Part shown: positions 20,726 through 46,712 of the stretch, in pieces
Position numbering within the stretch: position 1 is the stretch's first letter
Layout of the letters: every line of letters begins with the position of its first letter
Assembly: GCA_964443495.1 (NCBI GenBank)
Contig: CAYUCS010000002.1
Location: 23,740 to 87,739 of the forward strand
DNA from: an uncultured Gammaproteobacteria bacterium
GTDB taxonomy: Bacteria > Patescibacteriota > Patescibacteriia > Patescibacteriales > GWE2-39-37
Direction of reading: 5' to 3'
Length of the DNA stretch: 64,000 bases
The notes under the pieces: model-generated
Seen by the model: the letters and a program-made list of their open reading frames with translations, nothing else
Told to the model about the DNA's origin: nothing
The model's database searches: none
Translations under genes and position numbers: made by a program

Positions 20726-21832
20726 TCAGGAATCAAGGTCAGCCACCTCCAGATTCCTGGTGTGCCAGTTCAGGATCGCTGTCTTCCGTATCATCAGCTT
20801 GTGCATGTCGGGGTGCGCTTTCTGGATGACCTCGGAGGCGTACTGGCTCAAAAAATGGGACTTGAGCTCTGCCCTGGCCCGATCCACGCCGATTTCGGAG
20901 TACGGCGCCGACGCCAAAAGCAAAAAACCGTCTCTCGGGATCATTCCCTTGTCCATATTCGATTTGATGATGCTGACGGCATTGACGATCGGGCTGCTCA
21001 TGTCCGGGCTGTACGGACCGATGATCAGGGCGATGTTGGGCACGTGCAGGAAATCGAAGCCGCGGCCGATGCAGATGATCCACTCCCGATGCACCGAGTC
21101 GAGTTCGAGATTGCGGTGCGAATTCCTGATGTCCTTGATGTGCTCGATATTGCCCTGCGCCAGCGGGACCAAATCGCGCAAGACCTGGTCTGGCATATCC
21201 GGATACATCGTGCGCAATTTGTTGGCCCAGAATTCCTTCGAAGTCTCGCCGGCTTGCGCCAAGTCGAAAGCCTCGCCGTTTTCCCCGTGCAGGATCATGG
21301 CGTCTTCGTCGGTCTCGAAACCGCAGATTACCGGATAGACCGTCTGATGGTCATGGCCGAAGACGTATTCGATCTGCTTCTTCACCTCGAAGACGTGCTT
21401 GACGGCCGCTTCGCGATCGTAATTGAAGCCGGCGCAGCCGCGATGCTGGTCGCTCTTCGAATAATGATAAGTGATCATGATCAGCACTCGCTTCGAATCG
21501 TCGATGGCGTTGCTGACCGTATTGTAAAGCACCTCGCCTAAATAGGGCCAGCCCAGATCGAACATGCCGCCGATGTTGCGGAACGGCTTGATGATGCCCA
21601 ATGGCGTTTTGGTAGCGTAAGGCAGATGGATGCGCCCGTCCATGCATTTCAGGGCCATGATCATGGTCGGATGCTTGGCCGAATACCGCTTCCTGGCCAG
21701 ATAGGCCTCGGGCGTGCAGTAAGTCTCGGAATGGCGCTTGCTCAAATCAACCAGCCAATCGATCCGTTCCTGGATCGGCATGTGGTATATGTCCGCCTCC
21801 CGGGCGTTGATATACTTGTTGATTTCCTTCAT
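20726..21832 (-). CDS. hypothetical protein (weak beta-carbonic-anhydrase-like Cys/His motifs)
   Basis: It is a 368-aa ORF on the coding strand of its neighbours. CMDGR and HRGCAGF resemble the C-x-D-x-R and H-x-x-C-G zinc motifs of beta-carbonic anhydrases. This is only a motif-level resemblance. Confidence 0.5.
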   Translation of the reverse strand: MKEINKYINAREADIYHMPIQERIDWLVDLSKRHSETYCTPEAYLARKRYSAKHPTMIMALKCMDGRIHLPYATKTPLGIIKPFRNIGGMFDLGWPYLGEVLYNTVSNAIDDSKRVLIMITYHYSKSDQHRGCAGFNYDREAAVKHVFEVKKQIEYVFGHDHQTVYPVICGFETDEDAMILHGENGEAFDLAQAGETSKEFWANKLRTMYPDMPDQVLRDLVPLAQGNIEHIKDIRNSHRNLELDSVHREWIICIGRGFDFLHVPNIALIIGPYSPDMSSPIVNAVSIIKSNMDKGMIPRDGFLLLASAPYSEIGVDRARAELKSHFLSQYASEVIQKAHPDMHKLMIRKTAILNWHTRNLEVADLDS

Positions 21833-26725: not shown

Positions 26726-26784
26726 ACAATAATTTGTTCACTTAAATGAAAAACCCAAAAATAACATCCAAGGAGGATAACAAG

Positions 26785-27771
26785 GTGAAAAGACTAATTA
26801 CGGGAATCAGGCCCACGGCAAACTTAACCGTTGCCAACCTGATCGGAGCCGCGGTTCCGTTACTCGATCTGCAAAAGAGCGATAACGAAATCCTGGTCTT
26901 CGTGGCCACGATGCACGGCCTGACCGACCACGAGCCCAATGAAATTATGGGCAGCGTCGATGAGGTCGTAAAAGACTACCTGGCACTCGGCCTTGATCCT
27001 GAACGGGTGACTATTTTTGACCAAAGGGCGGTACGCCGCCAAGTAGCGCTGCTGAAGCTTTATCTCGAGCGCCACATCACCGTAGCCCGAGCTTGCAGGG
27101 TGCCGACGCTCAAGGAAAAATTGCGCGAAGGACAGACGCCCGAGCAGGCCAACGTGCTACTGATGGGTTACCCCATCATGATGGCAGCCGATATCCTGCT
27201 TCAGGACGCGGAAATCGTTCCGGTCGGCAAAGACCAATATTCGCACATGGAAGTAGCTCGCGAGCTTACTGACGCCTTCAACGCAAAATACGGAAAGAAA
27301 CACCGCGTGTTCATCAGGCCGGAAACGCTTAACCGCGAAGAACCAGTAAACATCCTTGCGCTGGTCGGCGACACCAAGATGTCGAAATCAAAACCGGAAA
27401 GCGCTATTTTCCTGACAGATTCGCCTGCGGCAATCAAGAAAAAGATCATGAGAGCGGAAACCGCCCTCGAAGGCGAGATGTCGGAAAAGCTGGACAGCCT
27501 GGTCAAGATGGCCATCTCCCTCGCACCTCAACGCGAAGCTGAGGTCAAGTCCTTGATTGACAGCCACATGGCAGGAGAAAAGATGATGGGAAGTTTCAAG
27601 AAAATCCTCGTGGAGATTCTTACAGACTTCACCTCGACTTTCCAGGAAAAACGCTCAACGGTCAGCGATGGCCTCGTGCAAGACATCCTTGCCGCCGGCG
27701 CGCTGAAAGCCCAGAGCAACGCAGACAAAGTCCTGCTGCGTGTCGAGAAATCGCTTGGACTGATTCAGTAG
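26785..27771 (+). CDS. trpS: tryptophan--tRNA ligase
   Basis: TGIRPTANLTVANLIGA matches the TIGN-type HIGH region. It also has VPVGKDQYSHMEVARE and KMSKS. I start at the GTG at 26785 because AAGGAGG lies 8 nt upstream. The track ATG at 26746 has no SD and is only ~14 nt from the predicted TSS. Confidence 0.85.
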   Translation: MKRLITGIRPTANLTVANLIGAAVPLLDLQKSDNEILVFVATMHGLTDHEPNEIMGSVDEVVKDYLALGLDPERVTIFDQRAVRRQVALLKLYLERHITVARACRVPTLKEKLREGQTPEQANVLLMGYPIMMAADILLQDAEIVPVGKDQYSHMEVARELTDAFNAKYGKKHRVFIRPETLNREEPVNILALVGDTKMSKSKPESAIFLTDSPAAIKKKIMRAETALEGEMSEKLDSLVKMAISLAPQREAEVKSLIDSHMAGEKMMGSFKKILVEILTDFTSTFQEKRSTVSDGLVQDILAAGALKAQSNADKVLLRVEKSLGLIQ

Positions 27772-27780
27772 CCGTAAGGC

Positions 27781-27809
27781 GGGCCATTCGCAAGGATGGC
27801 CCTTTTTTT
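27781..27809 (+). terminator. intrinsic terminator-like hairpin immediately after trpS
   Basis: GGGCCAT-TCGCAAGG-ATGGCCC is followed by T7. Confidence 0.6.
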
Positions 27810-27817
27810 ATAAAAAC

Positions 27818-28915
27818 ATGCCGGAAAAAAAAGAAAAAGCAGCCAAAAATAGGTTTGAAAAACTGATTCGCGACGTCATAAGCGGGGACGACATAGACAC
27901 CGGCCTGCTTTCTGCCGTTTTCAAGGAACTTCTGGAACATTCCCTTGGCGAATCGAACGAAACCTCGCTAGGGGCGCTATTCGCGTCTTTGCAAACGCGA
28001 GGCGTTAAGGACGAGGAAATCGTGGCGCTGTTCAACGTCGTCCAGGACTATGACCGTATTCCGGCAGCATGCTCTTATGACCCCTGCTCGCTCTACGGCA
28101 TCGTGGGCAGCGGCAAGGACGAGTTCAAAACCTACAACGTGAGCACATGCGCGGCATTCGTGGCTGCCACGATGGGAATAAAAGTCGTAAAGAATGGCTC
28201 CCGGTCGGATACGAGCATGGCTGGAACCACGGACCTGCTCGAAGCGCTGGGCTATCCGGTCGATGCCGCCAACCATAATCACGACAGCTCCATCAAGGCT
28301 GCCAATATCGCGTTCAGCGATGCCCTGCCGCATTTCCCCTTGATGTCGAGGGAGTACGTCGGCAAGATCCTATTTTTAAACCCCTTGAGCTACGTCCTTT
28401 CCATCGCCAGCGGCATCGAATTCAAAAACATAGTATTCGGCGTTTCATTCGACGAAACGGAAAGGGTGTGCAAGCTTCTCCGCATGATCGGAATGAGGTC
28501 AGCCCTGGTCGTGGCCGGGAAAACGGACGACGGCAGGCACTTTGATGAGATATCGACCGTCGGACCGACCAAGATTTCCGAGCTGCGCAACGGTCAGATC
28601 AGGACATATGAAGTTTCCCCGGAAGAGCTTGGCCTGCGGAAGTCGTCACCTATCAGCATCGCGCAGCCGTCAAGCCTTGATGAGGCCAAAAAACTTTTTC
28701 TCGAAGTCATCACAGGGCGGGCCAAGCATGAGACTTCAAGCATAGTCGCTGCCAACGCCGGCGCGTTGTACTTTCTTGAACATGGTCCGGACGCGTCCGA
28801 CCTCAGGAGCAGCATCGCGAAAGCCCAGGGGGTCATAGATTCCGGCTCCACTTTCGAAACATTTAAAAAATTCATGGACTCAGCCGGCCGCGCCAGTACC
28901 GGCGACAAAGGATAA
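27818..28915 (+). CDS. glycosyl transferase family 3 protein, divergent anthranilate phosphoribosyltransferase (TrpD)-like
   Basis: GIVGSGKDEFKTYNVSTCAAF compares with the canonical GTGGDxxxTFNIST. VKNGSRSDTSMAGTTDLLEALG compares with the canonical KHGNR...GSADxLEALG. Both fold-defining motifs are present but substituted. Confidence 0.7.
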   Translation: MPEKKEKAAKNRFEKLIRDVISGDDIDTGLLSAVFKELLEHSLGESNETSLGALFASLQTRGVKDEEIVALFNVVQDYDRIPAACSYDPCSLYGIVGSGKDEFKTYNVSTCAAFVAATMGIKVVKNGSRSDTSMAGTTDLLEALGYPVDAANHNHDSSIKAANIAFSDALPHFPLMSREYVGKILFLNPLSYVLSIASGIEFKNIVFGVSFDETERVCKLLRMIGMRSALVVAGKTDDGRHFDEISTVGPTKISELRNGQIRTYEVSPEELGLRKSSPISIAQPSSLDEAKKLFLEVITGRAKHETSSIVAANAGALYFLEHGPDASDLRSSIAKAQGVIDSGSTFETFKKFMDSAGRASTGDKG

Positions 28916-28916
28916 A

Positions 28917-30167
28917 ATGACTGACCGAAAAACAACAACCGATGAGGTGGATAAGCTGAACGGGGTCTATTCCCACATGCTCAAGCATAGCCCCTTTTAC
29001 CGCGATTTCTACAAACGCTCTCCCAGCAGCCTTTCAAGCCTTGAAGACTTCCAATCCCTGCCGTTCATCAGCAAGAAGGTTTTGCAAGATGTAAAATTTA
29101 CCGACCGCTTATGCGTGGACATGAGACAGGTACGCGAAATCCATTATTCATCAGGCACGACCGCCAATCCGATAATCGCCGCCTACACCAGCCAAGACCT
29201 TCGAAACAGCCGGGAGCACTTGTCCGAAACCTGGAAGATGCAAGGAGTGGAACATGGAACAAGGTTTGCCATGCTGGCATCATACGGCCTTTTTTCGGCC
29301 GGACTGATAAACCACTATGCCATACAGCATGCGGGCGGCTTCACGATTCCGATCAGCAGCGCTAATTTGGAAAAAATCATCAAGGTGACCAAAGAACTTA
29401 ACCCTGAAATGGGCGCCGCCGTCTCATCTTTTTACATGTTTTTTATCGAACGTCTTCGGCTGGCTGGTGTGGACCCGCGAGAAATCGGATTCAAACGCCT
29501 TATTGCCGGCGGCGAATACCTATCAGAGTCCCAGCGCAAATACATCGAAAAGGAATTCGATGCCTTGCTTCTTTTCCAGTACGGCCTCGCGGAAATAGAC
29601 ACTGGCATTGCTGGCGAGTGCTCGTGCCAGAACGGGCTGCATCTTCTAAACGACTACACCTACGCTGAAATCATAGACCCTGAAACAGAAAAGCTCCTTT
29701 CTCCGGGAGACGAAGGAGAGCTTGTCCTCTCGCACATGTCGCGCGAGGCGACGCCGCTTCTGCGTTATCGCACGGGCGATATCACCAGGATACTGCCTGG
29801 CGCCTGTCCGTGCGGGCGAACCGCGCTCCGAATAGCGCCCATCAAAAGAAGGGTTGGTGACAGCCTCACCTACAAAGGATCTAATATCGACTTGGACGAA
29901 TTTGAATCGATTCTTGAGAAAACAGAAGCCATGAAACCCTTCCACCCGCACATCTGGCAATTGCGGCTCGAGGCATCCGGGGCAAAACGCAGCCTTGAAC
30001 TGAAAGTATTCCCATTAGGCAACGAGGTCGCGGACCTAACGCTGTTAAGCAGCCAGATCAGGCTGTCCGCAGGCGCGAATATCGCCGTTTCTGTTTTTAC
30101 GCAAGATGAGTTTTCTAAAATATCCGAAGGAAAGCTGAAAAAATTCATCGTAATCAACCAAGTATGA
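28917..30167 (+). CDS. PaaK-like adenylate-forming enzyme (phenylacetate-CoA ligase / F390 synthetase family)
   Basis: It has the IHYSSGTTANPI AMP-binding motif and YRTGD. The protein is 416 aa and starts 1 nt after the upstream stop. Confidence 0.75.
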   Translation: MTDRKTTTDEVDKLNGVYSHMLKHSPFYRDFYKRSPSSLSSLEDFQSLPFISKKVLQDVKFTDRLCVDMRQVREIHYSSGTTANPIIAAYTSQDLRNSREHLSETWKMQGVEHGTRFAMLASYGLFSAGLINHYAIQHAGGFTIPISSANLEKIIKVTKELNPEMGAAVSSFYMFFIERLRLAGVDPREIGFKRLIAGGEYLSESQRKYIEKEFDALLLFQYGLAEIDTGIAGECSCQNGLHLLNDYTYAEIIDPETEKLLSPGDEGELVLSHMSREATPLLRYRTGDITRILPGACPCGRTALRIAPIKRRVGDSLTYKGSNIDLDEFESILEKTEAMKPFHPHIWQLRLEASGAKRSLELKVFPLGNEVADLTLLSSQIRLSAGANIAVSVFTQDEFSKISEGKLKKFIVINQV

Positions 30168-31507
30168 CCATGGATGTAAAAACTATTGTCGCCGGCGAAT
30201 ACGTTCCCGACGGCACCCCTAAAGAAGTGGTGTCGCCTTTCGGAATGGAAAAAATCGGCATGATTGAAATGCTGGATGACCTCGCTGCGGAGCAGCGATC
30301 GGAAATCGCCGGAATGCCCGTCGCGACAAGCTACGAAAAAACGCTCGAGAGCCTGGCGGGACTGGCCGGCATCATAGAAAAGAAATCCGAAGAACTCTCC
30401 GCCTTGGCAGCCAAAGAAACCGGCAGCCCCATCGAATACCACAAAAACGACCTCGAGTGCGCCGTTGAGCTATTGAAGAACCTGGGGCGGATCCATGAAC
30501 TGGAGCAAAAATCATTCCGGTACGATCCCAAGGGGCGATGCTTGATCATTCCTCCGGCCAACCAACCCATCATCACGACCATCTTTACGGTCGCTACCGC
30601 CCTGCTCTATGGCAACAAGGTCACCTTCCGGCCTTCTTCTCGCACGCCCATGGCCGCCAATGAAATTATCCGCGCCTTTTACTCCTGCGGCATCCCGCCC
30701 GAGTCCCTGGCGCTGCTCGCTTCGTCAAACAGGCTGACTGAAGAACTTATCCGTTCCAAAGCCTTCGATGCCGTCATTTCTTTCGCGAGCAATGCCGTCA
30801 ACGCCAAAATAGCCATCTTCTGCGCAGAATCCGATACGGAGCTTCATGCCGAAAACGAGGGCTATGACTGGGCTTATGTCGACAGCAGCCTGCCATTCGA
30901 AACGGAACGGGCGGCTGACTTGCTGATCGAAAGCATGATCAAGCACAACGGCCAAATGTGCGATTCCATCAGAGGCATCGCCGTCCACCGGGATATTTAC
31001 GACGACCTCAAGCACAAGCTCGTCGCCAAGCTGTCACGCATCACCGCAGGCAATCCGCTTGATTCAGAAAACCGTCTAGGCTCGCTCCTTAGGGGAACCG
31101 GCGACCTGGCCGATGCATATGCTTCAAAAATCCACTCGTCCAGCACCCTCCTGCTGGACAAGGCTCCGTTGCAGCTGTTCGAAATTACCGGACTTTCAGA
31201 CGAAATCTGCTCACAAGCTCCTTTTGCGCCGATTATCTGGCTCTATCGCAGCGAACATCCGGAACATATCATTGAGAAGTGGAACGATGCCAACCCTTAC
31301 GGGCTCGGCTTTTCGATCTATTCCAGCAACAAGGAAGTGCAATCTCTTTTCGCAGGAAAAATACGCGCCGGAAGGATTAATATAAACGGCGGACACGCCG
31401 ATGTCGGCGTCTTCGACCCGTGGGGCGGCGTGCGGCGGAGCGGCTTCGGCGGCCCGCAATATTGGTTTGAACTATTCACCAATCGTAAATTCATAAGCCA
31501 TGGATAA
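30164..31507 (+). CDS. aldehyde dehydrogenase family protein
   Basis: It has ALDH fold motifs, including the catalytic Cys context NGQMCDSIRG and an ENEG-type general-base region. An ATGA overlap couples it to the upstream gene. Confidence 0.8.
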   Translation: MTMDVKTIVAGEYVPDGTPKEVVSPFGMEKIGMIEMLDDLAAEQRSEIAGMPVATSYEKTLESLAGLAGIIEKKSEELSALAAKETGSPIEYHKNDLECAVELLKNLGRIHELEQKSFRYDPKGRCLIIPPANQPIITTIFTVATALLYGNKVTFRPSSRTPMAANEIIRAFYSCGIPPESLALLASSNRLTEELIRSKAFDAVISFASNAVNAKIAIFCAESDTELHAENEGYDWAYVDSSLPFETERAADLLIESMIKHNGQMCDSIRGIAVHRDIYDDLKHKLVAKLSRITAGNPLDSENRLGSLLRGTGDLADAYASKIHSSSTLLLDKAPLQLFEITGLSDEICSQAPFAPIIWLYRSEHPEHIIEKWNDANPYGLGFSIYSSNKEVQSLFAGKIRAGRININGGHADVGVFDPWGGVRRSGFGGPQYWFELFTNRKFISHG

Positions 31508-32171
31508 TATCAAGATAGTGATACTTAGCGGGGCTTCGGCCGACGGGAAAACATCGGTCAGCAGGGGCAGCTCCAGCAAAGAGTTCGGCCAAGCCTTGAG
31601 CGAACGCATGTCTGAGCCGGTCAAACGCTGGCGCAACTGGTGCGATATCGTCATTGTCGGGCGCGCTACTGTCACCTGCGACAATCCGTCGCTGGTATCA
31701 GGCCTGAGGCCAGGCTCGGTTCGCGGGCTTATCGACCGTTTTCTTCAGCTCGATTACCATTCTCAGCGGAACATCCTGGATGACCGCACGCCTACGATCG
31801 TTTTTACGGCCCAGGAACCGACCGATGAATTGAAAGCGATGGCAGGCGTTGAATTCGTCGTCTTGAAGGATGATAATTTTTTTTCCGATCTGAAACAGGC
31901 CTTGTCGGACAAGGGGCTGGGCAAGGTCCTTTTTGAGTCGGGCGGGACATTGACTCCGCTCTTGCTGGAAGCTGGCATTGCCGACGAGATGGTTTTCGCC
32001 CACTTCCCTTTCATTGTTGGCGGAACCGCCCCGACCTTGTGCGATGGCCCAGGAATAAGCGGCATAGAACAGCGCCTCCGATTGGATTTGCTTGGCCTGG
32101 AAGAAATTGATGGCATGATTACGGCGCACTACCGGGTAAACTACGGCCAAGCGCCTGAAATTGACATGTAG
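31500..32171 (+). CDS. RibD C-terminal-domain (dihydrofolate-reductase-like) reductase
   Basis: VILSGASADGKTS, VIVGRATV and FESGGTLTPLLLEAGIADEMVF are typical of the RibD_C / pyrimidine reductase family. It overlaps the upstream gene by 8 nt. Confidence 0.7.
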   Translation: MDNIKIVILSGASADGKTSVSRGSSSKEFGQALSERMSEPVKRWRNWCDIVIVGRATVTCDNPSLVSGLRPGSVRGLIDRFLQLDYHSQRNILDDRTPTIVFTAQEPTDELKAMAGVEFVVLKDDNFFSDLKQALSDKGLGKVLFESGGTLTPLLLEAGIADEMVFAHFPFIVGGTAPTLCDGPGISGIEQRLRLDLLGLEEIDGMITAHYRVNYGQAPEIDM

Positions 32172-32239
32172 CGAATCTTGCTATATTATTGAAAACCGCT
32201 CATTCACATCTGACAAAATAACGACCAAGGAGGCAGGCG

Positions 32240-33223
32240 ATGAAAAATGACTCGCAGAAGGCCAATGCGCAAGGGTGTCCGCCGAAGTCGATCGGAGGAA
32301 ATCGGATTGTCGGCACGACCTATCACGAGATTGAAAGAATGACGCGGCCGATAAGCTGCCGGTCGATCATAAACGGATGTTATTTCCTGGAGCGCGGCAT
32401 AATGGCCTCCTTTATCAATTCTGACAACGGCCAAATCGCGCGCATCATGTCCGGACAGGAAAAAGTCGCAGTCGTGACAGGATTCGGCTTGACCGGAATG
32501 CCGCATCTGGGAACCAAGATAATCCGCGACGAGCTGGCATTCATGCTGAGCCTCGGGAACAAGGTTTACATCTGCGTCAGTTCGGCTGACGCTGTCGTTC
32601 GTGCCAAGTCGGCAATCGATGCCGAGCAAAGCGAATCGGCTTTGGCCGAATTCTTTTCCTCGCTTCAACTCCACCCAGGCTGCCGCTTCATGCGAAACGA
32701 TGAAATCATGCAAGTCGTCGAAAAGTCGCCTTGGAACGAAAAAGAGGCCGGGGCTATTTTTGAACGGATCTACGAAACGAGCTACGATAGCCCGAAAGGA
32801 AAAGCTCTTGCCTGCATGGCGAAATCTATCATAGGGATTTACTGTGGCCAGGCACCATCTACCCGATGCCTGGTACCGCTAGGCATAGATGAATTCGACA
32901 ATGCCAGCTTCGTCACGGCAACAGCGCAAGCCATCGGGCTACGTCCGCCCATCTTCACCTTTAACCGTATCGTGCCCGGGTACGGCACAATAAAGATGGG
33001 CAAAAGCATCCCCCGGCAAAGCCTGGTCATGTCCGGATCACCCGCCGAAGAATACGCCAAGATGGCGCCCTACATCGGTGATCGTGACCACGAAATCCAC
33101 GAACCATGCGCCCTTTGCAGCGCAATATTCTTTTCTGGACACGCGATAGACATTACAGATCGCCACGCCAGACGGAACGCCCACGACAACCCGGAAACAA
33201 TCATAAAGGAAATACTAGGTTAG
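32240..33223 (+). CDS. truncated class-I aminoacyl-tRNA-synthetase-like protein (TrpRS/TyrRS-like catalytic core, no anticodon-binding domain)
   Basis: VAVVTGFGLTGMPHLGT has a HIGH-like PHLG, LGIDEFDNASF resembles the class Ic GxDQ region, and KMGKS is KMSKS-like. AAGGAGG lies 6 nt upstream of the ATG at 32240. The protein is too short to hold a C-terminal tRNA-binding domain. Confidence 0.55.
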   Translation: MKNDSQKANAQGCPPKSIGGNRIVGTTYHEIERMTRPISCRSIINGCYFLERGIMASFINSDNGQIARIMSGQEKVAVVTGFGLTGMPHLGTKIIRDELAFMLSLGNKVYICVSSADAVVRAKSAIDAEQSESALAEFFSSLQLHPGCRFMRNDEIMQVVEKSPWNEKEAGAIFERIYETSYDSPKGKALACMAKSIIGIYCGQAPSTRCLVPLGIDEFDNASFVTATAQAIGLRPPIFTFNRIVPGYGTIKMGKSIPRQSLVMSGSPAEEYAKMAPYIGDRDHEIHEPCALCSAIFFSGHAIDITDRHARRNAHDNPETIIKEILG

Positions 33224-41558: not shown

Positions 41559-41703
41559 ACTCTTTATCCTCCCTTCGAGTGATTTGTTGTTGAAAATAAA
41601 AAGTGCAATTATAAATTAAAGCACATTTTTTACTTTTTGTCCAGTGCACTACGTGTTCCTTTAGCTAAAAATAGCCTAAATTAGGGCAATTTTCATATTG
41701 TAT

Positions 41704-41927
41704 AGGGAGAAGAAGTTACGAAATCACTCGCTCGCCGTCGCGAGCTAGTTTTTTGTCCTGGGTGGCGCTGAATACTACCTGTTCGGTCACATTCGTCGGC
41801 GTCGACTAAACTTCCTGCCGAAAGAAGTTCTGCAGAAAGTTTGCCCCCCCCCTGCTGCCCGTTCGATTTCTTCATATCGCCTATATCAATAAAAACAACG
41901 CACCAGATTGCTGGTGCGTTGTTTTTA
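41704..41927 (+). repeat. left (decayed) copy of the ~220-bp structured element plus terminator that also precedes tRNA-Trp
   Basis: By hand alignment it matches 45943-46164, roughly 80-85 percent identical over the central ~130 nt and weaker over the first ~50 nt. It includes its own terminator hairpin AACAACGCACCAG-ATTG-CTGGTGCGTTGTT plus a T-run. A C9 tract sits where the right copy has TCAC. Confidence 0.7.
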
Positions 41928-41930
41928 TTG

Positions 41931-41953
41931 CACACCCCAACGAAGCGTGCCAT
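41931..41953 (-). pseudogene. possible decayed remnant of the 3' part of tRNA-Trp
   Basis: CACACCCCAACGAAGCGTGCCAT aligns loosely to CACGGGGTGAAGGAATCGAACCCTCGCCAT of the intact tRNA-Trp. It occupies the same position relative to the repeat unit. Confidence 0.3.
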
Positions 41954-42037
41954 GACTTTTTTTAAGAAAATACTGAGTATATTTATATCCCGGTTTTAAA
42001 AAATTAATGACTGTGTCGTCGATATGACTATATACAA

Positions 42038-44281
42038 TTATGAATTAACATCAATTGGAACAGAAACTCTCGACTCAATCTCTATCATGCTCTCTATTTC
42101 CTCGTGCAAATCAATGGTGTCATCTTCAAACATATCTTCTATTGTTAAAACGATTGAATATTTTTGCCTATAGTCTCCGGCGATAGTAAAATCCTCGTCT
42201 TTCAATTCACACACAACGTCAATATACCAAAATTTTCCGGCATGGTTGGTTGTTGAGAACTCTTTAGTTGGATAATTTTTTACATTTGATTTTTGGTGCG
42301 CCCCTCCATACGTTTCTCGAGTACTCAAACCGCCCTGAGCTTTTCGATCATCCCTTAATAGCTGCGCCGATATATTGATTGGATTATAAAGCCTTGGGTT
42401 GCTTGGATTTGTTATTGGATTATAAACAAGAGTTTTACGGATGCGTAAGCGTTTTAAATGACTACCTGATATACATGATGGAATTGGAAATTTAATCGTT
42501 TTTGTTGTTCCTATCTTAATTTCATCTTCTATAACAATAGTAGTGGAGTTGCTCAAGGAATTTACAGCCCTTTCCATGTTTGGCATTCCAAATCCAACCA
42601 AAGAACTCTTCATCGTAAGATCGCCAATCTCAGAAGCATCAATGTTATCAGAAAAATGCACTAATAAAGCCTTTAATGTATTGCAGCTATAATTCGGGTA
42701 TTGGCCACTTAACTTCGCCAGCTCGTGAGTGATTAAAGGCGTTGAAAAACTTGTGCCATATGATTTTATTATTTCATTATTAACATCCGACGCTGTTGTT
42801 ATGCCATTATATTCAGGAGTAAAATCTTTTTTAAAATTTGAATCATAATGAACAAAATCTGGCTTTATAAAAGGAGAGTCATCAACATTGCCTCTGGTGT
42901 GTGGGGCTGGATGTTTTATTCTAGTAATCGAGTCAACGCTCTCCTGATAAGTCACAGAACCAACTGAAATATTATTAATACTATCAGCAGGTGGCAAAAT
43001 TCTAGAAAATTTAAAGGCAAAATGGGATGGATATCCAACCCTTTTACATGCTTCAACAAATTCATCTTCCCAAAACTGAAACAAGTTACCAACAGAAACA
43101 ACAAATATACAGTTATATTTATTCGCCAACTCATCAAGTAAGGCGGTTAGATTATGAATCGTTTTTACTCCTCCAAAATATGTAGTGTAGTTGTTTATTG
43201 ATAAATTTATTATCAATTGCTGATATTCAGCAGCTAGCCGTGGAACAATGTCTGCAATTCTTTCATCTAACTTAAAGGGGTTATCCTCTAAAACATTTGC
43301 TGATATAACGTGATTTTCTTGTTGAATTTCTTGATTATTGTTAAGCTGCATGCCTGCTATAACTAAACTTGCAACAGCGGTGCCATGCCACATATCACCA
43401 CTATTAGATCCAATACAATCCTTAACAGCCCTATCAAGCAATACATGCTCTTTATTTACCGGTCCATCAAAAATAATTACTGGCCTATTCTCGTTTTGAG
43501 GGGGATTAACTTTTAAATGAGATATGTCGTCTCTCATGGCCGAAAGCATTAATTCATACTTTGGAGCCTGATTAATACGGATGATTTCGTCATATTTTTT
43601 GACTATTTCTTTTACATCTTGAAAATTAACTTTTAGACGGCAATAATGAAGCCTTTCCGTATTTATTTTAGATATAAGTTTATCTTCTAACTCGCCTTCA
43701 ATGCTCGACAACTTTTGATCAAGATCATTTTTTTTGCCAGCGAATGACACATCAACAAAGAAATCCTGGCTAGGATTATTTTTAAACTTCTTCTTTAAAT
43801 CTTTTTCAATTATTTCATTAAGAGTTAATGGTTGAATAGACTTTACTTTATTGAAATAGGATTTAAGCGCATCGTTATTGGCATAATTTAAAACATCGTT
43901 TTTGAATTTTTCAAAATCCGAATTTCTCTGATTCCTAAGCTTGTCATTGCTAATGCTGCCGATAATAAGCTCGTTTTTATTACGATCAATATCTTTTTTG
44001 TAAACACTTACACGATATTTAGCGAGAAATTTTCTATCAAGTGGGCCATTAAATTTCACCAACACCTCACTCCTGGTTTTTTCAGGCTCAACATGCACAG
44101 ATTTTAACTTCTTCTCGAAATAAGAACTTACATGATTAATCCCGACAGACAAATGATTTTTTTGACGAGCAAAATTTATATCTTTTGAATATTGAGGGAA
44201 GCCATGCTTAGCAGCAACATAAGAACTCTCACCTGAAATCAGTGACTTTGGCAGCACTATGTGACTATATTTCTTGGCCAT
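42038..44281 (-). CDS. S8-family subtilisin-like serine protease with ~270-aa N-terminal domain of unknown function (IetS-like)
   Basis: The catalytic triad contexts are Asp in VIIFDGPV, His in MWHGTAVASLVIAG and Ser in SYGTSFSTPLITH. The gene starts 1 nt after the AAA+ gene stop and has AT-rich codon usage unlike the flanking genes. Confidence 0.8.
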   Translation of the reverse strand: MAKKYSHIVLPKSLISGESSYVAAKHGFPQYSKDINFARQKNHLSVGINHVSSYFEKKLKSVHVEPEKTRSEVLVKFNGPLDRKFLAKYRVSVYKKDIDRNKNELIIGSISNDKLRNQRNSDFEKFKNDVLNYANNDALKSYFNKVKSIQPLTLNEIIEKDLKKKFKNNPSQDFFVDVSFAGKKNDLDQKLSSIEGELEDKLISKINTERLHYCRLKVNFQDVKEIVKKYDEIIRINQAPKYELMLSAMRDDISHLKVNPPQNENRPVIIFDGPVNKEHVLLDRAVKDCIGSNSGDMWHGTAVASLVIAGMQLNNNQEIQQENHVISANVLEDNPFKLDERIADIVPRLAAEYQQLIINLSINNYTTYFGGVKTIHNLTALLDELANKYNCIFVVSVGNLFQFWEDEFVEACKRVGYPSHFAFKFSRILPPADSINNISVGSVTYQESVDSITRIKHPAPHTRGNVDDSPFIKPDFVHYDSNFKKDFTPEYNGITTASDVNNEIIKSYGTSFSTPLITHELAKLSGQYPNYSCNTLKALLVHFSDNIDASEIGDLTMKSSLVGFGMPNMERAVNSLSNSTTIVIEDEIKIGTTKTIKFPIPSCISGSHLKRLRIRKTLVYNPITNPSNPRLYNPINISAQLLRDDRKAQGGLSTRETYGGAHQKSNVKNYPTKEFSTTNHAGKFWYIDVVCELKDEDFTIAGDYRQKYSIVLTIEDMFEDDTIDLHEEIESMIEIESRVSVPIDVNS

Positions 44282-44282
44282 A

Positions 44283-45374
44283 TTATTCTGATAATACGTA
44301 GTTCTTATAAGAATTCCTATGGATATTTAACAAATTTGATATGCCTGATTTTGAATACCCATTACTTTCTAGCATTTTACACAATTTGCTTAATAGGTTA
44401 ATATTTTCCTTTTTCAGGTCTTTTGGCCGAGCCATGTAGTCCTCCATAAACACAACTTCTATAAAATTTGCCAGGTCAAGCTTTTGAATATGTTCAAACA
44501 TCATATTCATTTTCACTTTCTTGAAAAAGACATCAATATCATCAATCGTGTTTATTTGCAAAAAATCAAAAATCTTTACCAAAAAAGTAATATCTTTCTT
44601 AGATAAAGAATTATTAACCCCTAAAAGCTTATACTCCAAAAACGATTGCTTTTCTTGTGTATTTAACGCACCAACATAGACTTTGTAGGAGAACCTTCTA
44701 AGTATGGCTGGATCAATTGTATCAATAAGATTTGTAGCAACGATTATTATCCTTCCATTTGCTTGAAAATCGAGAGTTTGAATAAGCGAATTCACGATTC
44801 TTTTTAATTCTCCCACGTCATTACCTTCTTCTCTGGATTTTGCCAATGCATCAAATTCGTCAATAAAAATAATACTATCTGATGTTGACTCAAATAAATC
44901 AGATATATTTCTCATTGTTTCACCAAGCTTCGAAGAAATTACATCTGTGATTTTTACATAATTGATTGGCTTACCAAGCCTACTGGAAATATAGAACCCT
45001 AGTGTAGTTTTTCCACTACCTGGTGGTCCATACAATAAAATTTTATTTAACAGTTCAGTTTCGCTATCGCCTTGTTTTTGCTGATGCTGATAATACGCTA
45101 TAAATTTATCTACCCTAACTTTCACTGAATCCATCATCCATTCAAAATTATTCAGAACATCGTCAGCTTTTGAGCGTGAAATACGAGCGCCGCTTTGGGC
45201 ATAATTAGATTTTGATCTATCAATCAACTCGAGAAGTTTTTTATACGTTGAATGCCTATTATTATTTATCTCATTAGCCGCTAAATCCTCAACCAGCTCA
45301 ATAAGCATTTTTTTATCACCTCTGAGTCCATGTTCAATAATCTTATACAATAGTTGTTGGTTTAAATTTGGCAT
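44283..45374 (-). CDS. classical-clade AAA+ ATPase (IetA-like)
   Basis: It has Walker A LLYGPPGSGKTT, Walker B IIFIDEFDAL, sensor-1 VATN and the Arg-finger region DPAILRRF. It has a single AAA module with a ~100-aa N-terminal and ~90-aa C-terminal extension. Confidence 0.8.
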   Translation of the reverse strand: MPNLNQQLLYKIIEHGLRGDKKMLIELVEDLAANEINNNRHSTYKKLLELIDRSKSNYAQSGARISRSKADDVLNNFEWMMDSVKVRVDKFIAYYQHQQKQGDSETELLNKILLYGPPGSGKTTLGFYISSRLGKPINYVKITDVISSKLGETMRNISDLFESTSDSIIFIDEFDALAKSREEGNDVGELKRIVNSLIQTLDFQANGRIIIVATNLIDTIDPAILRRFSYKVYVGALNTQEKQSFLEYKLLGVNNSLSKKDITFLVKIFDFLQINTIDDIDVFFKKVKMNMMFEHIQKLDLANFIEVVFMEDYMARPKDLKKENINLLSKLCKMLESNGYSKSGISNLLNIHRNSYKNYVLSE

Positions 45375-45401
45375 GGGAAAATTATATGAATAAATGTGGG
45401 T

Positions 45402-45441
45402 TGCACAATTTTATTATAACATTATATTTTTGTGCAGTAAA
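45402..45441 (-). promoter_or_regulatory. putative promoter of the AAA+/S8 operon, bracketed by a 7-bp inverted repeat (candidate operator)
   Basis: On the minus strand it reads TTTACT (45441..45436), a 17-nt spacer, then TATAAT (45418..45413). TGCACAA (45402..45408) and TTGTGCA (45430..45436) flank the -10. Confidence 0.45.
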
Positions 45442-45629
45442 CAATATTTTTTATTTAAAATTAGTCTAAAAAAAATAATAATACAAATTACAAATGAGGA
45501 TCTGTGGACAATATCAATTTCAACCAACACTTATAACAGCCTTTTGACCAGACGTTATATGGTATTACAAGAAGATGCCCAAGGTGAGCGAGGAGCTTCA
45601 AGAAAGAAGGCCGGACTACAAAACTAATT

Positions 45630-45941
45630 TCCAAATTAAGGCACAAGCTTAAAGAAACTAGGAAGCGAGCAGGCCCTTAGCTGTAATTGTCGGAGCGAGC
45701 TCTCGGATTCGCTTCAGGCGCTTGCCTGACATTTGAAGTGGGAGAGATTAAAAGTAAGCGTGAAATATTTAGAACTATCAGCTCGGAGTTCGTTTTAACC
45801 AATAAACAATCAGGCCCCACGCCAAATTATTGGATCCAGATCATTGCAGATGGAAATAAGGAAATGACAAACTCAGAACTAACTGATTTAGATCAAAATA
45901 ACAGAATAACAGCTGATATTTCAGTCACCCTTCCAGCCTAG
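45630..45941 (+). pseudogene. disrupted XRE-family helix-turn-helix gene remnant
   Basis: The frame reads SKLRHKLKETRKRAGP*L*LSERALGFASGACLTFEVGEIKSKREIFRTISSEF. This resembles the XRE HTH pattern (LRxLRxxxGLSxxxLAxxxGxSxxxISxxExG) but carries two in-frame stops at 45678 and 45684. Confidence 0.3.
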
Positions 45942-45942
45942 C

Positions 45943-46164
45943 GCGGGGTGAAGGAACTTCGCCTCAACTGCGCTTCCGCTCCGTCTTCGTTGCCCTGGGC
46001 AGCGCTGAATGTTCCCTATTCGGTCACATTCATCGGCGTTCGGCTAAACTTTCTGCCGACAGAAATTCGGCAGAAAGTTTGCCTCACTGCTGCCCGTTCG
46101 ATTCCTTCACGTCTCCTATATCAAAAAGCAAGGCGCACCAGATTACTGGTGCGCCTTGCTTTTT
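45943..46164 (+). ncRNA. candidate structured RNA (right, well-preserved copy of the repeat unit), convergent with tRNA-Trp
   Basis: P1 pairs 45948-45956 GTGAAGGAA with 46102-46110 TTCCTTCAC. P2 pairs 45997-46003 GGGCAGC with 46089-46095 GCTGCCC. The P3 hairpin pairs 46006-46012 with 46026-46032. The P4 hairpin (17 bp, one bulge) pairs 46042-46059 with 46067-46083. It ends in the shared terminator. The 5' end is the reverse complement of the tRNA-Trp acceptor/T-stem 3' strand. Confidence 0.35.
46128..46164. terminator. bidirectional intrinsic terminator shared by tRNA-Trp and the candidate RNA
   Basis: GCAAGGCGCACCAG-ATTA-CTGGTGCGCCTTGC is a 14-bp perfect stem flanked by A5 and T5 runs. Confidence 0.7.
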
Positions 46165-46237
46165 GGCACGGGGTGAAGGAATCGAACCCTCGCCATAGGT
46201 TTTGGAGACCCACGTACTACCATTATACTAACCCCGC
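46164..46237 (-). tRNA. tRNA-Trp (anticodon CCA), CCA end encoded
   Basis: I folded the cloverleaf by hand. The acceptor is GCGGGGU/ACCCCGU, the anticodon stem-loop is UGGGU-CUCCAAA-ACCUA, the T-arm is GAGGG-UUCGAUU-CCUUC, and the 3' end is GCCA. Confidence 0.9.
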
Positions 46238-46282
46238 AAAATCAGAGCTCAAAAATGATTTTGAGCTCTGAGCAAAATGCTT

Positions 46283-46438
46283 TTATTTGGTTTCCTTGTG
46301 GCCGGTGTGCTTGCCGCAGTGCTTGCAGAACTTGTTCATTTCCAAGCGCGTCTTCAAAGTCTTCTTGTTCTTGCGCGAGAAATAATTGATCGTCTTGCAT
46401 TCGGTGCACTCCAGCTTGATCATGTTATCTTGGCTCAT
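46283..46438 (-). CDS. rpmG: 50S ribosomal protein L33
   Basis: The translation is [51 protein letters not shown] (51 aa). It has the CxxC...CxxC zinc ribbon and the L33 C-terminal HKETK. It is shorter than the ORF-track cut-off. Confidence 0.85.
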
Positions 46439-46521: not shown

Positions 46522-46543
46522 GGTGGGCCGAGCATGATTCGAA
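46522..46543 (-). repeat. duplicated 3' fragment of tRNA-Tyr (T-loop to acceptor) in the rpmG upstream region
   Basis: GTGGGCCGAGCATGATTCGAA (46523-46543) is identical, 21 of 21, to 46629-46649 at the 3' end of the intact tRNA-Tyr ~85 nt away. It is followed by a GGGGTTAAACCCC hairpin. Confidence 0.6.
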
Positions 46544-46629
46544 GGGGTTAAACCCCACGCCGAAAGGCATTTTCTCCTACATACTCAGCTCATCAAAAAG
46601 AATAATTGCAAATGCAATTTTCCTTTTTG

Positions 46630-46712
46630 TGGGCCGAGCATGATTCGAACATGCGAAGGCGAAAGCCAGCAGATTTACAGTCTGCCCCAGTTGACCGCTT
46701 TGGTATCGACCC
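46630..46712 (-). tRNA. tRNA-Tyr (anticodon GUA), long variable arm, CCA not encoded
   Basis: In my hand fold the acceptor is GGGUCGA/UCGGCCC, the anticodon arm is GCAGA-CUGUAAA-UCUGC, the variable arm is UGGCUUUCGCCUUC, and the T-arm is GCAUG-UUCGAAU-CAUGC. Confidence 0.85.

What the first reader, a model, noticed from the sequence alone, without database searches (positions are those of the whole stretch)
41704..46237. Integrase-less island at tRNA-Trp bracketed by ~220-250-bp diverged direct repeats; the displaced copy is decaying
On the plus strand the order is: repeat L (41704-41927), a probable tRNA-Trp 3' remnant (41931-41953), the AT-rich core, repeat R (45943-46164), and the intact tRNA-Trp (46164-46237, minus strand). 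Each repeat consists of a structured ~170-nt segment plus a strong terminator hairpin. Both are followed by tRNA-Trp 3' sequence, intact on the right and badly decayed on the left. This is the classic signature of insertion into the 3' half of a tRNA gene. Two features are unusual. The duplicated segment extends about 220 bp beyond the tRNA, and no integrase or recombinase is present. All helices of the R copy are perfect. The L copy has accumulated mismatches in P3 and P4 and a C9 homopolymer insertion. This is what I would expect if the incoming element supplied a functional replacement and the displaced host copy drifted. By hand alignment the two copies are roughly 80-85 percent identical over the central ~130 nt, and the exact value needs computing.
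Basis: seen in the sequence. Interest (0 to 1): 0.7.

Follow-up and report, generated by a model that had tools for sequence, protein, structure and literature searches.

The report
Decayed defence island between tRNA-linked hairpin modules
In an uncultivated Patescibacteria genome, the end of the tRNA-Trp gene has collected several insertions: a decayed mobile island carrying an IetAS anti-phage gene pair, flanked by two copies of a small undescribed hairpin-rich DNA module that also sits behind tRNA genes in a few related bacteria.

Summary

- **Repeats and cargo:** the repeat cores are 83.6% identical. The core has GC 0.33 against about 0.52 in the flanks and encodes an intact IetA/IetS defence pair.
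- **Integrase:** the island is not truly integrase-less. Positions 45633-45940 are a stop-ridden C-terminal fragment of a large serine recombinase. It ends in a 15/16 copy of the tRNA-Trp 3' end. In a 95%-identical relative an intact gene of this kind abuts the tRNA itself.
- **tRNA remnant:** the proposed remnant at 41931-41953 is not significant. The real displaced tRNA 3' end and the ancestral terminator lie at 41665-41731, at the far end of repeat L.
- **The repeat ("X"):** it has host-like GC and is independent of the island. X-like modules follow tRNA-Trp or tRNA-Tyr in three other Patescibacteria lineages. Each has the order terminator, inverted T-arm copy, hairpin core, direct copy of the tRNA 3' end. 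In one lineage there is no island at all.

My best reading is serial insertions at one tRNA hotspot. X is probably a recombinase-less, att-flanked mini-module, but its mobility and function are not shown. Interest is moderate.

The parts
46164..46237 (-). Intact tRNA-Trp (anticodon CCA), downstream of rpmG (46283-46438, minus strand)
   Evidence: ARAGORN. Rfam tRNA model, 63.9 bits. Pfam Ribosomal_L33 for the neighbouring gene.
46123..46164 (.). Terminator hairpin of unit R. It has a 20-bp stem with an A-run on one side and a T-run on the other, so it can terminate in both directions. It serves tRNA-Trp.
   Evidence: Folds; coordinates. Compensatory differences from the L terminator (helix 8).
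46096..46110 (.). Inverted copy of the tRNA-Trp T-loop and T-stem (GTTCGATTCCTTCAC on the plus strand), identical at 15 of 15 positions to the reverse complement of 46173-46187. It forms one strand of the basal helix P1 of X_R.
   Evidence: P1 pairing.
45957..46122 (.). Core of module X_R. It has helix P2 (GGGCAGC/GCTGCCC), a perfect 14-bp hairpin at 46046-46080, and smaller hairpins. GC of X_R as a whole is 0.54, like the host.
   Evidence: No Rfam family matches even at E <= 10.
45941..45956 (-). Direct copy of the tRNA-Trp 3' end (15 of 16 positions). It is the other strand of P1. It is also the tRNA-like end of the recombinase element.
   Evidence: 2 of 2000 shuffles; 13/13 exact; colinear with the recombinase-tRNA junction of locus L002 up to ...GGAA.
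45633..45940 (+). Pseudogene fragment of a large serine recombinase, corresponding to residues 422-529 of the L002 protein. Stops lie at 45678, 45684 and 45939. The N-terminal ~420 residues are missing.
   Evidence: tblastn: 46% identity, E = 5e-21. Stop positions and GC 0.41. The L002 protein carries Resolvase and Zn_ribbon_recom domains.
45375..45632 (.). AT-rich spacer upstream of IetA, with the best promoter-like site of the region on the minus strand (45441-45413, TTTACT-17-TATAAT with an upstream TG)
   Evidence: a consensus match only; GC 0.26-0.30.
44283..45374 (-). IetA, an AAA+ ATPase of 363 aa. The Walker A motif GPPGSGKT can be read in the sequence near 45000-45030.
   Evidence: PADLOC IetA, E = 1e-62, nearly full length. 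Pfam AAA, E = 1e-27. Sequence.
42038..44281 (-). IetS, a subtilisin-like S8 protease of 747 aa, separated from IetA by a single base
   Evidence: PADLOC IetS, E = 2e-60. Pfam Peptidase_S8, E = 1.5e-21.
41931..42037 (.). Only GTGCAA (41928-41933, read on the minus strand) resembles a tRNA end, of the type seen in relatives.
   Evidence: 823 of 2000 shuffles reach the score. for GTGCAA ends in L001, L013 and L015.
41888..41929 (.). Terminator hairpin of unit L. It is intact and lies 108 nt downstream of the IetS stop codon, so it probably terminates the ietAS operon.
41732..41887 (.). Core of module X_L. Its inverted T-arm copy at 41861-41875 matches at 13 of 15 positions. It also has a degraded 14-bp hairpin at 41808-41842, a C9 run at 41844-41852 and two mismatches in P2.
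   Evidence: core folding energy -36.2 against -50.0 kcal/mol for R.
41700..41731 (-). Displaced, decayed 3' third of tRNA-Trp (GCGAGTGATTTCGTAACTTCTTCTCCCTATAC). This is the true far boundary of all the inserted DNA.
   Evidence: Alignment to the tRNA-Trp 3' end of L013, score 31.5, 0 of 2000 shuffles.
41665..41697 (-). Ancestral tRNA-Trp terminator, homologous to the terminator that directly follows tRNA-Trp in relative L013, which has no insertion

Best explanation
The locus is a layered insertion hotspot at the T-loop and 3' end of tRNA-Trp in a Patescibacteria genome related to Candidatus Falkowbacteria. About 4.45 kb lies between the working tRNA and its displaced 3' end, which still carries the ancestral terminator (41665-41731).

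The inserted DNA consists of three units. Each begins with a piece of tRNA 3' end. Read outward from the tRNA they are:
1. Module X_R.
2. A decayed island of the large-serine-recombinase type. Its recombinase is reduced to a C-terminal pseudogene. Its retained cargo is an intact IetA/IetS defence operon of foreign, AT-rich composition.
3. Module X_L.

X is a ~220-bp non-coding unit. It is built of a tRNA 3' end, a strong terminator, an inverted copy of the T-arm, a hairpin-rich core closed by helices P1 and P2, and a T-arm-like end that abuts the next copy of the tRNA 3' end.

I infer that the units arrived one after another by recombination in the tRNA T-loop region. Each newcomer supplied a fresh tRNA 3' end and terminator and pushed the older units outward. 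On this reading X_L is oldest and most decayed, and X_R is youngest and intact. X itself encodes no recombinase. It would have been inserted by a recombinase acting in trans, or by homology-anchored recombination of imported DNA.

Shown: the parts, their order, their homologies, and the independence of X from the island.
Inferred: the order of arrival and the way X moves.
For: **Island and recombinase**
- IetA and IetS are identified by PADLOC and Pfam.
- GC is 0.334 for the ietAS segment, 0.49-0.54 for X and 0.52-0.54 for the flanks.
- The recombinase pseudogene ends in a 15/16 copy of the tRNA 3' end. This junction is colinear with the junction between the intact recombinase gene and tRNA-Trp in L002 and L003. 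These are 95%-identical relatives, and in them no X lies between gene and tRNA.
- Related recombinases also abut tRNA-Trp in L027, L016 and L044/L058.

**Far boundary**
- The displaced tRNA 3' third and the ancestral terminator at 41665-41731 align to L013, which has no insertion, with 0 of 2000 shuffles reaching the score.
- L001 and L013 carry a plain terminator after tRNA-Trp.

**X as a discrete unit**
- Homologues lie directly 3' of tRNA-Trp in L015, with an 18-nt perfect direct repeat.
- A homologue lies directly 3' of tRNA-Trp in L040, with an 83-nt perfect direct repeat and no island. The same arrangement appears in a second sample, L055.
- A homologue lies 3' of tRNA-Tyr in L027, where the inverted and direct copies are those of tRNA-Tyr.
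- P1 and P2 are kept through compensatory changes: GGGCAG/CTGCCC against GGTCAG/CTGACC, and three double changes in P1.
- The direct copies match each host's own tRNA at 15-16 of 16 positions.

**The same process elsewhere**
- In this window a module flanked by a perfect 21-nt direct repeat (46523-46543 and 46629-46649) follows tRNA-Tyr. L001 has a precise empty site.
- Such repeats occur at 8 of 64 tRNA loci examined and at none in shuffled controls.

**Relative age**
- X_R has perfect helices and a 15/16 repeat. The adjacent recombinase fragment has 3 stops in 108 codons. X_L has lost 18 of 74 pairs.
Against: - No recombinase is intact in the window. None was found among about 40 large ORFs scanned with Pfam. 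Mobilisation of X is therefore unsupported by any enzyme here.
- X is very rare. An exact-pattern scan of genome contigs returned nothing. The metagenome scan returned only chance matches, and two protein-space searches with spurious ORFs found nothing. With only five copies, the covariation evidence is weak.
- Substitutions between L and R are not concentrated in loops (p = 0.2). Apart from the terminators, selection on structure is not shown.
- The junction between IetS and L (41931-41953) does not contain the tRNA 3' copy that the model predicts. Only GTGCAA is present.
- The 83-nt perfect repeat in L040 fits a recent local duplication at least as well as an integration event.
- The final arrangement is the same if the recombinase island inserted into the middle tRNA-like copy of a pre-existing X-X tandem. 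The order of arrival rests only on relative decay.
Confidence: 0.5

Rival explanations
1. Duplication first, island second. X is a resident trailer of tRNA-Trp that tends to duplicate in tandem. It could do so by unequal crossing-over, or by slippage between the tRNA 3' end and its downstream copy. The recombinase island carrying ietAS then inserted into the middle tRNA-like copy, which acted as a secondary attachment site, and split an X_R-X_L tandem.
For: - L040 shows an 83-nt perfect direct repeat around one core, with no island.
- X has host-like GC.
- The copy at 45941-45956 keeps a T-arm-like left arm (GAGGCGAAG|TTCC) that could serve as a pseudo-attB.
- The final gene order is what this model predicts.
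Against: - L and R are only about 84% identical. R is pristine, while the recombinase fragment that would be younger than the duplication is heavily decayed. R would then have to be under selection, for which there is no independent evidence.
- The closest relatives, L001 and L013, have no X at all.
- An X core with tRNA-Tyr-specific ends in L027 argues for movement between loci rather than purely local duplication.
Confidence: 0.25
2. A single incoming element carried a replacement tRNA 3' end and ~220 bp of trailer (R), picked up from a related donor. It inserted into a native tRNA-Trp followed by X_L. The displaced native copy (L) then drifted, and the integrase was lost.
For: - R is intact and L is decayed.
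- The working tRNA ends in GTGCCA, as in L002 where the recombinase element supplies the end. L keeps GTGCAA, as in relatives L001, L013 and L015.
- An element integrated at the outer copy of an X in a donor could excise from the tRNA proper and carry X along.
Against: - An internal copy of the tRNA 3' end sits between R and the recombinase fragment (45941-45956). It marks a separate junction inside the supposed single element.
- R has host-like GC of 0.54, against 0.33 for the cargo.
- The true displaced tRNA end and ancestral terminator lie beyond L, so L is itself an insertion and not native trailer.
- The CCA/CAA difference also occurs between loci with homologous sequence downstream of the tRNA, L036 against L037. 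It is therefore not diagnostic.
Confidence: 0.12
3. X is a gene for a structured non-coding RNA, or a regulatory or insulating RNA element tied to tRNA-Trp or tRNA-Tyr. It is kept for its function. The second copy is a redundant paralogue that is decaying.
For: - Very stable folds (z-scores of -7 to -10).
- P1 and P2 are conserved through compensatory changes across lineages.
- The inverted segment is complementary to 15 nt of the mature tRNA.
Against: - No Rfam family matches.
- Both strands fold equally well, which is typical of DNA palindromes.
- The four copies share no upstream promoter context.
- A strong terminator separates X from the tRNA transcript.
- Interior hairpins are not conserved between lineages (helices 5-7).
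- X is absent from the closest relatives.
- Substitutions are not biased to loops.
Confidence: 0.08

Closest known systems
tRNA-linked genomic islands with tandem accretion, and cis-mobilisable elements (CIMEs, known from Streptococcus thermophilus ICESt1/ICESt3). Cited from my own knowledge.
   Same: - Insertion at the 3' end of a tRNA gene, with the tRNA end regenerated by the newcomer.
- Displaced partial tRNA copies act as internal and outer boundaries.
- Several units lie in tandem.
- Some units keep attachment sites but no recombinase.
   Different: - X is only ~220 bp and carries no gene at all, whereas CIMEs are kilobases long.
- The recombinase seen at this hotspot is a large serine recombinase, not a tyrosine integrase.
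- X additionally carries an inverted copy of the target T-arm.
- Mobilisation has not been shown.
IetAS defence system (Gao et al. 2020, cited from my own knowledge; PADLOC models IetA and IetS)
   Same: An adjacent AAA+ ATPase and S8 subtilase on one strand. Both match the PADLOC models nearly full length, with E = 1e-62 and 2e-60.
   Different: The host is a Patescibacteria genome. The pair sits in a decayed serine-recombinase island at tRNA-Trp. Defence activity has not been tested.
Integrative elements driven by large serine recombinases (for example phiC31 and Bxb1 prophages, SCCmec Ccr, TnpX; cited from my own knowledge)
   Same: In relatives L002, L027 and L044 the recombinase gene lies at the very edge of the element, next to the attachment junction. 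These proteins carry Resolvase with Zn_ribbon_recom or Recombinase domains.
   Different: Here only the last 108 codons survive, with three stops. The target is a tRNA T-loop and 3' end, and the element regenerates the tRNA end. That is more typical of tyrosine integrases.
Recombinase-less elements that use folded or borrowed sites: IMEX elements such as CTX phage attP, and integron attC sites. Cited from my own knowledge.
   Same: - No recombinase of its own.
- An inverted copy of the target core lies a short distance inside the element. A folded single strand would therefore rebuild a duplex like the target (P1 = GTGAAGGAA/TTCCTTCAC).
   Different: This is a resemblance of layout only. No Xer or IntI-type enzyme, single-stranded intermediate or conserved recombination box was tested or found.
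MITEs and other small palindromic repeats (Correia, REP/BIME; cited from my own knowledge)
   Same: Small, non-coding and rich in hairpins.
   Different: X is not dispersed. It is found only at tRNA-Trp or tRNA-Tyr 3' ends. Its flanking repeats are 13-83 nt of tRNA sequence, not a short target duplication.

Membership tests
IetAS defence system | IetA-type AAA+ ATPase | tested here: met
   PADLOC PDLC02196, E = 1e-62, residues 7-359 against profile positions 5-367 of 374. Pfam AAA. Walker A motif GPPGSGKT is readable.
IetAS defence system | IetS-type S8 subtilase encoded next to IetA on the same strand | tested here: met
   PADLOC PDLC02197, E = 2e-60. Pfam Peptidase_S8. The genes are 42038-44281 and 44283-45374, both on the minus strand.
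IetAS defence system | Protection against phage or plasmid | not testable with these tools
   Needs an experiment.
tRNA-integrated genomic island | Abuts the 3' end of an intact tRNA gene | tested here: met
   tRNA-Trp at 46164-46237. Inserted DNA starts at its 3' end.
tRNA-integrated genomic island | Partial direct copy of the tRNA 3' end at the far boundary | tested here: met
41700-41731 with the ancestral terminator, 0 of 2000 shuffles. Internal copy at 45941-45956, 2 of 2000 shuffles.
tRNA-integrated genomic island | Cognate integrase or recombinase gene inside the island | tested here: not met
   Only a 108-codon C-terminal pseudogene fragment with 3 stops is present. No recombinase domain was found in about 40 other window ORFs.
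tRNA-integrated genomic island | Composition unlike the host | tested here: met
   GC 0.334 against 0.52-0.54. This holds for ietAS only, not for the X modules.
Large serine recombinase (the fragment at 45633-45940) | N-terminal resolvase catalytic domain and zinc-ribbon/recombinase domain in an open frame | tested here: not met
   tblastn with the L002 protein finds only residues 422-529. The frame is broken at 45678, 45684 and 45939.
Non-autonomous att-flanked element (CIME-like), for module X | Bounded by direct copies of the attachment (tRNA 3') sequence | tested here: met
   R: 15 of 16. L015: 16 of 16 (18 nt perfect). L040: 16 of 16 (83 nt perfect). L027: 14 of 16 against tRNA-Tyr.
Non-autonomous att-flanked element (CIME-like), for module X | Presence/absence polymorphism with a clean empty site | tested here: inconclusive
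   X is absent from L001 and L013, but their downstream genes differ. X_R is an exact extra segment relative to the recombinase-tRNA junction of L002. A clean empty site exists for the tRNA-Tyr module, which is related in layout only, in L001 against the window.
Non-autonomous att-flanked element (CIME-like), for module X | Excision or integration by a recombinase supplied in trans | not testable with these tools
   Needs read-level or experimental data.
Known RNA families (Rfam 15) | Match to a covariance model | tested here: not met
   No hit on X at gathering thresholds or at E <= 10.
Plain tandem duplication | Copies adjacent with nothing between them in some genome | tested here: inconclusive
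   L040 and L055 have an 83-nt segment (tRNA end, terminator, inverted copy) repeated around one core, with no island. No locus shows two complete X units side by side.
MITE | Many dispersed copies with terminal inverted repeats and a short target duplication | tested here: not met
   There are only two copies in the 64 kb window, both at the tRNA-Trp locus. Elsewhere X occurs only behind tRNA-Trp or tRNA-Tyr.

The most novel reading that the evidence does not exclude
X, together with the tRNA-Tyr modules that share its layout, would be a previously undescribed class of miniature, gene-less cassettes that insert into tRNA T-loops in Patescibacteria. Their basal helix pairs an inverted T-arm copy with a direct tRNA 3' copy. 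When the strand folds, this rebuilds the target duplex, as CTX-phage attP and integron attC sites do. Each cassette regenerates the tRNA end with its terminator and adds a further tRNA-like docking site. In this way the cassettes would build arrays in which defence islands such as ietAS are captured and exchanged.
Probability: 0.12. Interest if true: 0.75.

Novelty: new variant of a known kind. Interest (0 to 1): 0.45.

Why it matters
- **Defence gene turnover in small genomes.** Even the very small genomes of Patescibacteria exchange defence genes at a tRNA hotspot. Here the cargo is ietAS. In other lineages the same tRNA-Trp carries an OLD-family nuclease island, a type I restriction-modification island or a phage-like element.
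- **A corrected picture of the 'integrase-less' island.** The recombinase is present as a fossil. The real outer boundary can be recognised only by comparison with a relative that has no insertion.
- **A possibly new small element.** The X module is a conserved, att-flanked unit of ~220 bp that always contains an inverted copy of its own target. If it proves mobile, it would be an unusually small integrative element. It would also give a handle on how tRNA hotspots grow by accretion. If it is only a duplication-prone trailer, the locus is an ordinary decayed island.

Tried and rejected
- **Rfam.** Searches at gathering thresholds and at E <= 10 found nothing on X.
- **Exact-pattern scans for X.** Genome contigs gave 0 hits and viral contigs gave 0. 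Metagenome contigs gave 7 hits, all chance matches of 21-26 nt.
- **Protein-space searches.** Searches with spurious ORFs across X_R and across the L040 module found only the query itself.
- **Other collections.** X has no match in the phage or plasmid collections. A viral-contig scan for relatives of the recombinase was empty.
- **Coding potential of X.** Rejected. Indels are not multiples of three, L has stops in all six frames, and reading frames are not conserved with L015.
- **X as a degenerate tRNA, tmRNA or 6S RNA.** Rejected. ARAGORN and Rfam are negative, and only 15 nt of X are tRNA-like.
- **GTGCCA against GTGCAA tRNA ends as a marker of origin.** Rejected, because the same difference occurs between loci with homologous downstream sequence (L036 against L037).
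- **Far ends of intact recombinase islands.** None was found within 8 kb in L016, L056-L059. I therefore could not test whether X is the normal distal end of such islands.
- **A recombinase acting in trans.** None was found in the window.
- **Selection on structure between L and R.** The test was not significant.

Full report
**What is at the coordinates**

ARAGORN and Rfam place tRNA-Trp(CCA) at 46164-46237 on the minus strand. It lies downstream of rpmG at 46283-46438.

The two repeats are real. MAFFT gives 83% mean column identity for 41690-41960 against 45930-46200. The core from CCTGGG to TATATCAA matches in 112 of 134 columns, or 83.6%. Both copies fold much better than shuffled sequence, with z-scores of -9.8 for R and -7.4 for L. 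They fold just as well on the opposite strand. Each copy ends in a 20-bp hairpin flanked by an A-run and a T-run.

R has intact helices. When R's predicted pairs are transferred to L, 18 of 74 are lost, and L has a C9 run at 41844-41852. The compositional shift is also real. GC is 0.334 for 41931-45632 and 0.52-0.54 on either side.

**What the AT-rich core encodes**

The two minus-strand ORFs are a defence gene pair.

| Gene | Coordinates | Length | PADLOC | Pfam |
|---|---|---|---|---|
| IetA | 44283-45374 | 363 aa | E = 1e-62, nearly full length | AAA |
| IetS | 42038-44281 | 747 aa | E = 2e-60 | Peptidase_S8 |

The genes are separated by one base. A promoter-like site lies upstream at 45441-45413. 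The intact L terminator lies 108 nt downstream of the IetS stop. The cargo is thus an apparently intact IetAS system.

**The island is not integrase-less**

Exact look-up of the window's L33 protein returned three related contigs. In L002 and L003, which are 95% identical to the window across rpmG and its upstream genes, a 558-aa large serine recombinase gene runs right up to tRNA-Trp. It carries Resolvase and Zn_ribbon_recom domains.

A tblastn search with that protein hits window 45633-45956 on the plus strand. The match covers residues 422-529 at 46% identity, E = 5e-21, with in-frame stops at 45678, 45684 and 45939. The fragment ends in GCGCGGGGTGAAGGAA at 45941-45956. This is a 15/16 direct copy of the tRNA-Trp 3' end (2 of 2000 shuffles).

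An alignment shows the window and L002 to be colinear through the recombinase end and this tRNA-like stretch up to ...GGAA. After that point L002 continues into the tRNA, and the window continues into repeat R. The N-terminal ~420 codons of the recombinase are gone.

The stretch at 41931-41953 aligns to the tRNA no better than 41% of shuffles. Only GTGCAA next to the L terminator looks like a tRNA end.

The far end of L is different. Read on the minus strand, 41731 down to 41665 aligns to the last 32 nt of tRNA-Trp and the native terminator of relative L013, a Candidatus Falkowbacteria MAG with no insertion. The score is 31.5, and 0 of 2000 shuffles reach it.

The ancestral state was therefore tRNA-Trp followed directly by that terminator, as in L013 and L001. 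Everything from about 41732 to the tRNA is inserted DNA, including both repeats.

**What the repeat is**

I call the repeat unit X. Read in the sense of the tRNA, each unit has this order:
- the tRNA 3' end;
- the terminator hairpin;
- an inverted copy of the T-loop and T-stem (46096-46110, 15 of 15 positions; 41861-41875, 13 of 15);
- helix P2 (GGGCAGC/GCTGCCC) enclosing hairpins;
- a variable ~35-nt stretch;
- a T-arm-like end (GAGGCGAAG) that abuts the next direct copy of the tRNA 3' end.

The inverted and direct copies pair to form a basal helix, P1.

X does not appear to be a gene. It has no Rfam match. It is not coding, given indels that are not multiples of three, stops in all frames of L, and no conserved frame. 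Its GC is host-like at 0.54 and 0.49.

**X in other genomes**

The organism belongs to the Patescibacteria, near Candidatus Falkowbacteria. I collected loci through a neighbouring TPR protein and through L33 variants. X homologues appeared in three other lineages.

| Locus | tRNA | Features |
|---|---|---|
| L015 | tRNA-Trp | X directly behind the tRNA; ends in an 18-nt perfect copy of that genome's own tRNA 3' end |
| L040 (and L055, a second sample) | tRNA-Trp | nhmmer E = 9.5e-24; the flanking repeat is 83 nt and perfect (tRNA end, terminator, inverted copy); nothing but one X core between the copies |
| L027 | tRNA-Tyr | X-like core between tRNA-Tyr and tRNA-Thr, with the same GGGCAG...CTGCCC helix; inverted and direct copies derive from tRNA-Tyr |

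P2 changes from GGGCAG/CTGCCC to GGTCAG/CTGACC between lineages. P1 has three pairs with changes on both sides. The direct copies match each host's own tRNA at 15-16 of 16 positions.

X is absent behind tRNA-Trp in L001, L013, L014, L016, L017, L020, L034, L036-L038 and L041-L045.

X is also rare in the wider databases. Exact-pattern scans of the genome, metagenome and viral collections found nothing real. Two protein-space searches with spurious ORFs, and searches of the phage and plasmid collections, were likewise empty.

**Similar small insertions at tRNA-Tyr**

The window's own tRNA-Tyr is followed by a module flanked by a perfect 21-nt direct repeat (46523-46543 and 46629-46649). L002 has it too. 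L001 lacks it precisely, which gives a clean empty site. L036 and L015 carry comparable modules behind tRNA-Tyr. Such repeats were found at 8 of 64 distinct tRNA loci examined and at none in shuffled controls.

In another species the same tRNA-Trp is followed by three alternative islands:
- a serine recombinase with an OLD-family nuclease;
- a phage-like set of genes;
- a type I restriction-modification system.

The tRNA 3' ends of this gene neighbourhood are therefore a general insertion hotspot, often for defence genes.

**Most likely history and mechanism**

Read outward from the tRNA, the inserted DNA consists of three units that each begin with tRNA 3' sequence. The first is X_R. The second is the recombinase fragment with ietAS. 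The third is X_L. Beyond them lie the displaced ancestral tRNA end and its terminator.

This is the layout expected from serial recombination in the T-loop region. Each newcomer regenerates the tRNA end and pushes earlier arrivals outward, as in tandem accretion at tRNA genes (from my own knowledge of CIME and ICE accretion).

Relative decay fits this order. X_R and its repeat are pristine. The recombinase is a stop-ridden fragment. X_L is degraded, and the outermost tRNA copy is the most eroded. The ietAS pair stays intact, presumably because it is useful. The L terminator stays intact because it ends that operon.

How X itself is inserted is inferred, not shown. It could be moved by a recombinase acting in trans, or by anchored recombination of imported DNA. 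No working recombinase is in the window.

**Rivals**

- **Duplication first.** A pre-existing X-X tandem split by the island gives the same final order. L040's 83-nt repeat favours it. It requires selection to explain R's perfection, and I could not demonstrate such selection.
It is weakened by the internal tRNA copy between R and the recombinase fragment, by R's host-like GC, and by the ancestral remnant lying beyond L.
- **A functional RNA.** This is not excluded. It lacks support from strand asymmetry, promoter context, conservation of interior hairpins and phylogenetic distribution.

**Verdict**

The finding is a real, layered tRNA-Trp hotspot. A decayed serine-recombinase island carrying IetAS lies between two copies of an undescribed hairpin module linked to tRNA genes. 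The island itself is an ordinary kind of object in an unusual host. The module is the part worth following up, but five copies and no read-level data leave its nature open.

Noticed in passing
window 46523-46649 (minus strand, between tRNA-Tyr and the rpmG leader): A module directly follows tRNA-Tyr and is flanked by a perfect 21-nt direct repeat of the tRNA-Tyr 3' end (46523-46543 and 46629-46649). It starts with a terminator hairpin and ends in the hairpin GGGGTTTAACCCC. It is present in L002 and precisely absent in L001 and L013. L036 has a longer version with an inverted T-arm copy.
   Followed up: partly
L027 8532-8716: An X-like core with the same GGGCAG...CTGCCC helix lies between tRNA-Tyr and tRNA-Thr in a Candidatus Kerfeldbacteria MAG. 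Its inverted and direct copies derive from tRNA-Tyr. The direct copy matches the tRNA-Tyr 3' end of relative L020 better than that of L027's own present tRNA. It therefore looks like a fossil of an older acceptor stem.
   Followed up: partly
L056/L058, L057/L060, L059 (one species, identical tRNA-Trp): Three different islands follow the same tRNA-Trp. One has a serine recombinase and an OLD-family (AAA_15/AAA_21, TOPRIM) nuclease. One is a phage-like set of genes (HTH_17, RadC, VanY). One is a type I restriction-modification system (HsdM, HsdS). No far-end tRNA repeat was found within 8 kb.
   Followed up: partly
L043/L059 about 3506-3620: Behind tRNA-Trp lies a second tRNA-like 3' fragment (GGGGTGGTTCGATACCCATAAGGGTGGCA). 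It is followed by an inverted T-arm copy (GAAGGGAATCGAAC) and then a terminator. The building blocks are those of X, in a different order.
   Followed up: no
window 45948-46271 (plus strand): A 107-codon open frame runs through X_R and antisense through tRNA-Trp. It is in the same frame as the recombinase fragment. It is spurious, with no homologue in the protein database, but it could mislead gene callers. In L002 the recombinase ORF is likewise called through the tRNA.
   Followed up: yes
window 26746-33223 (plus strand): A gene cluster contains two class I Trp/Tyr-tRNA-synthetase-like ORFs (26746-27771, strong match; 32240-33223, weak match). It also contains a TrpD-like glycosyltransferase family 3 protein, an AMP-binding enzyme, an aldehyde dehydrogenase and a RibD_C protein. 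This is an unusual combination for a Patescibacteria genome.
   Followed up: no
window 20726-21832 (minus strand): A 368-aa ORF has a weak match (E = 1.5e-7) to the catalytic domain of carboxysome-shell carbonic anhydrase (CsoSCA_cat).
   Followed up: no
L017 5872-6040 and L020 5314-5420: Decayed tRNA-Trp 3' fragments lie 70-160 nt downstream of tRNA-Trp (for example GTTCGATTCCCACG in L017 and GGTTCGACACCTTCTTTCCCTGCTA in L020). They are probably scars of earlier insertions at the same hotspot.
   Followed up: no
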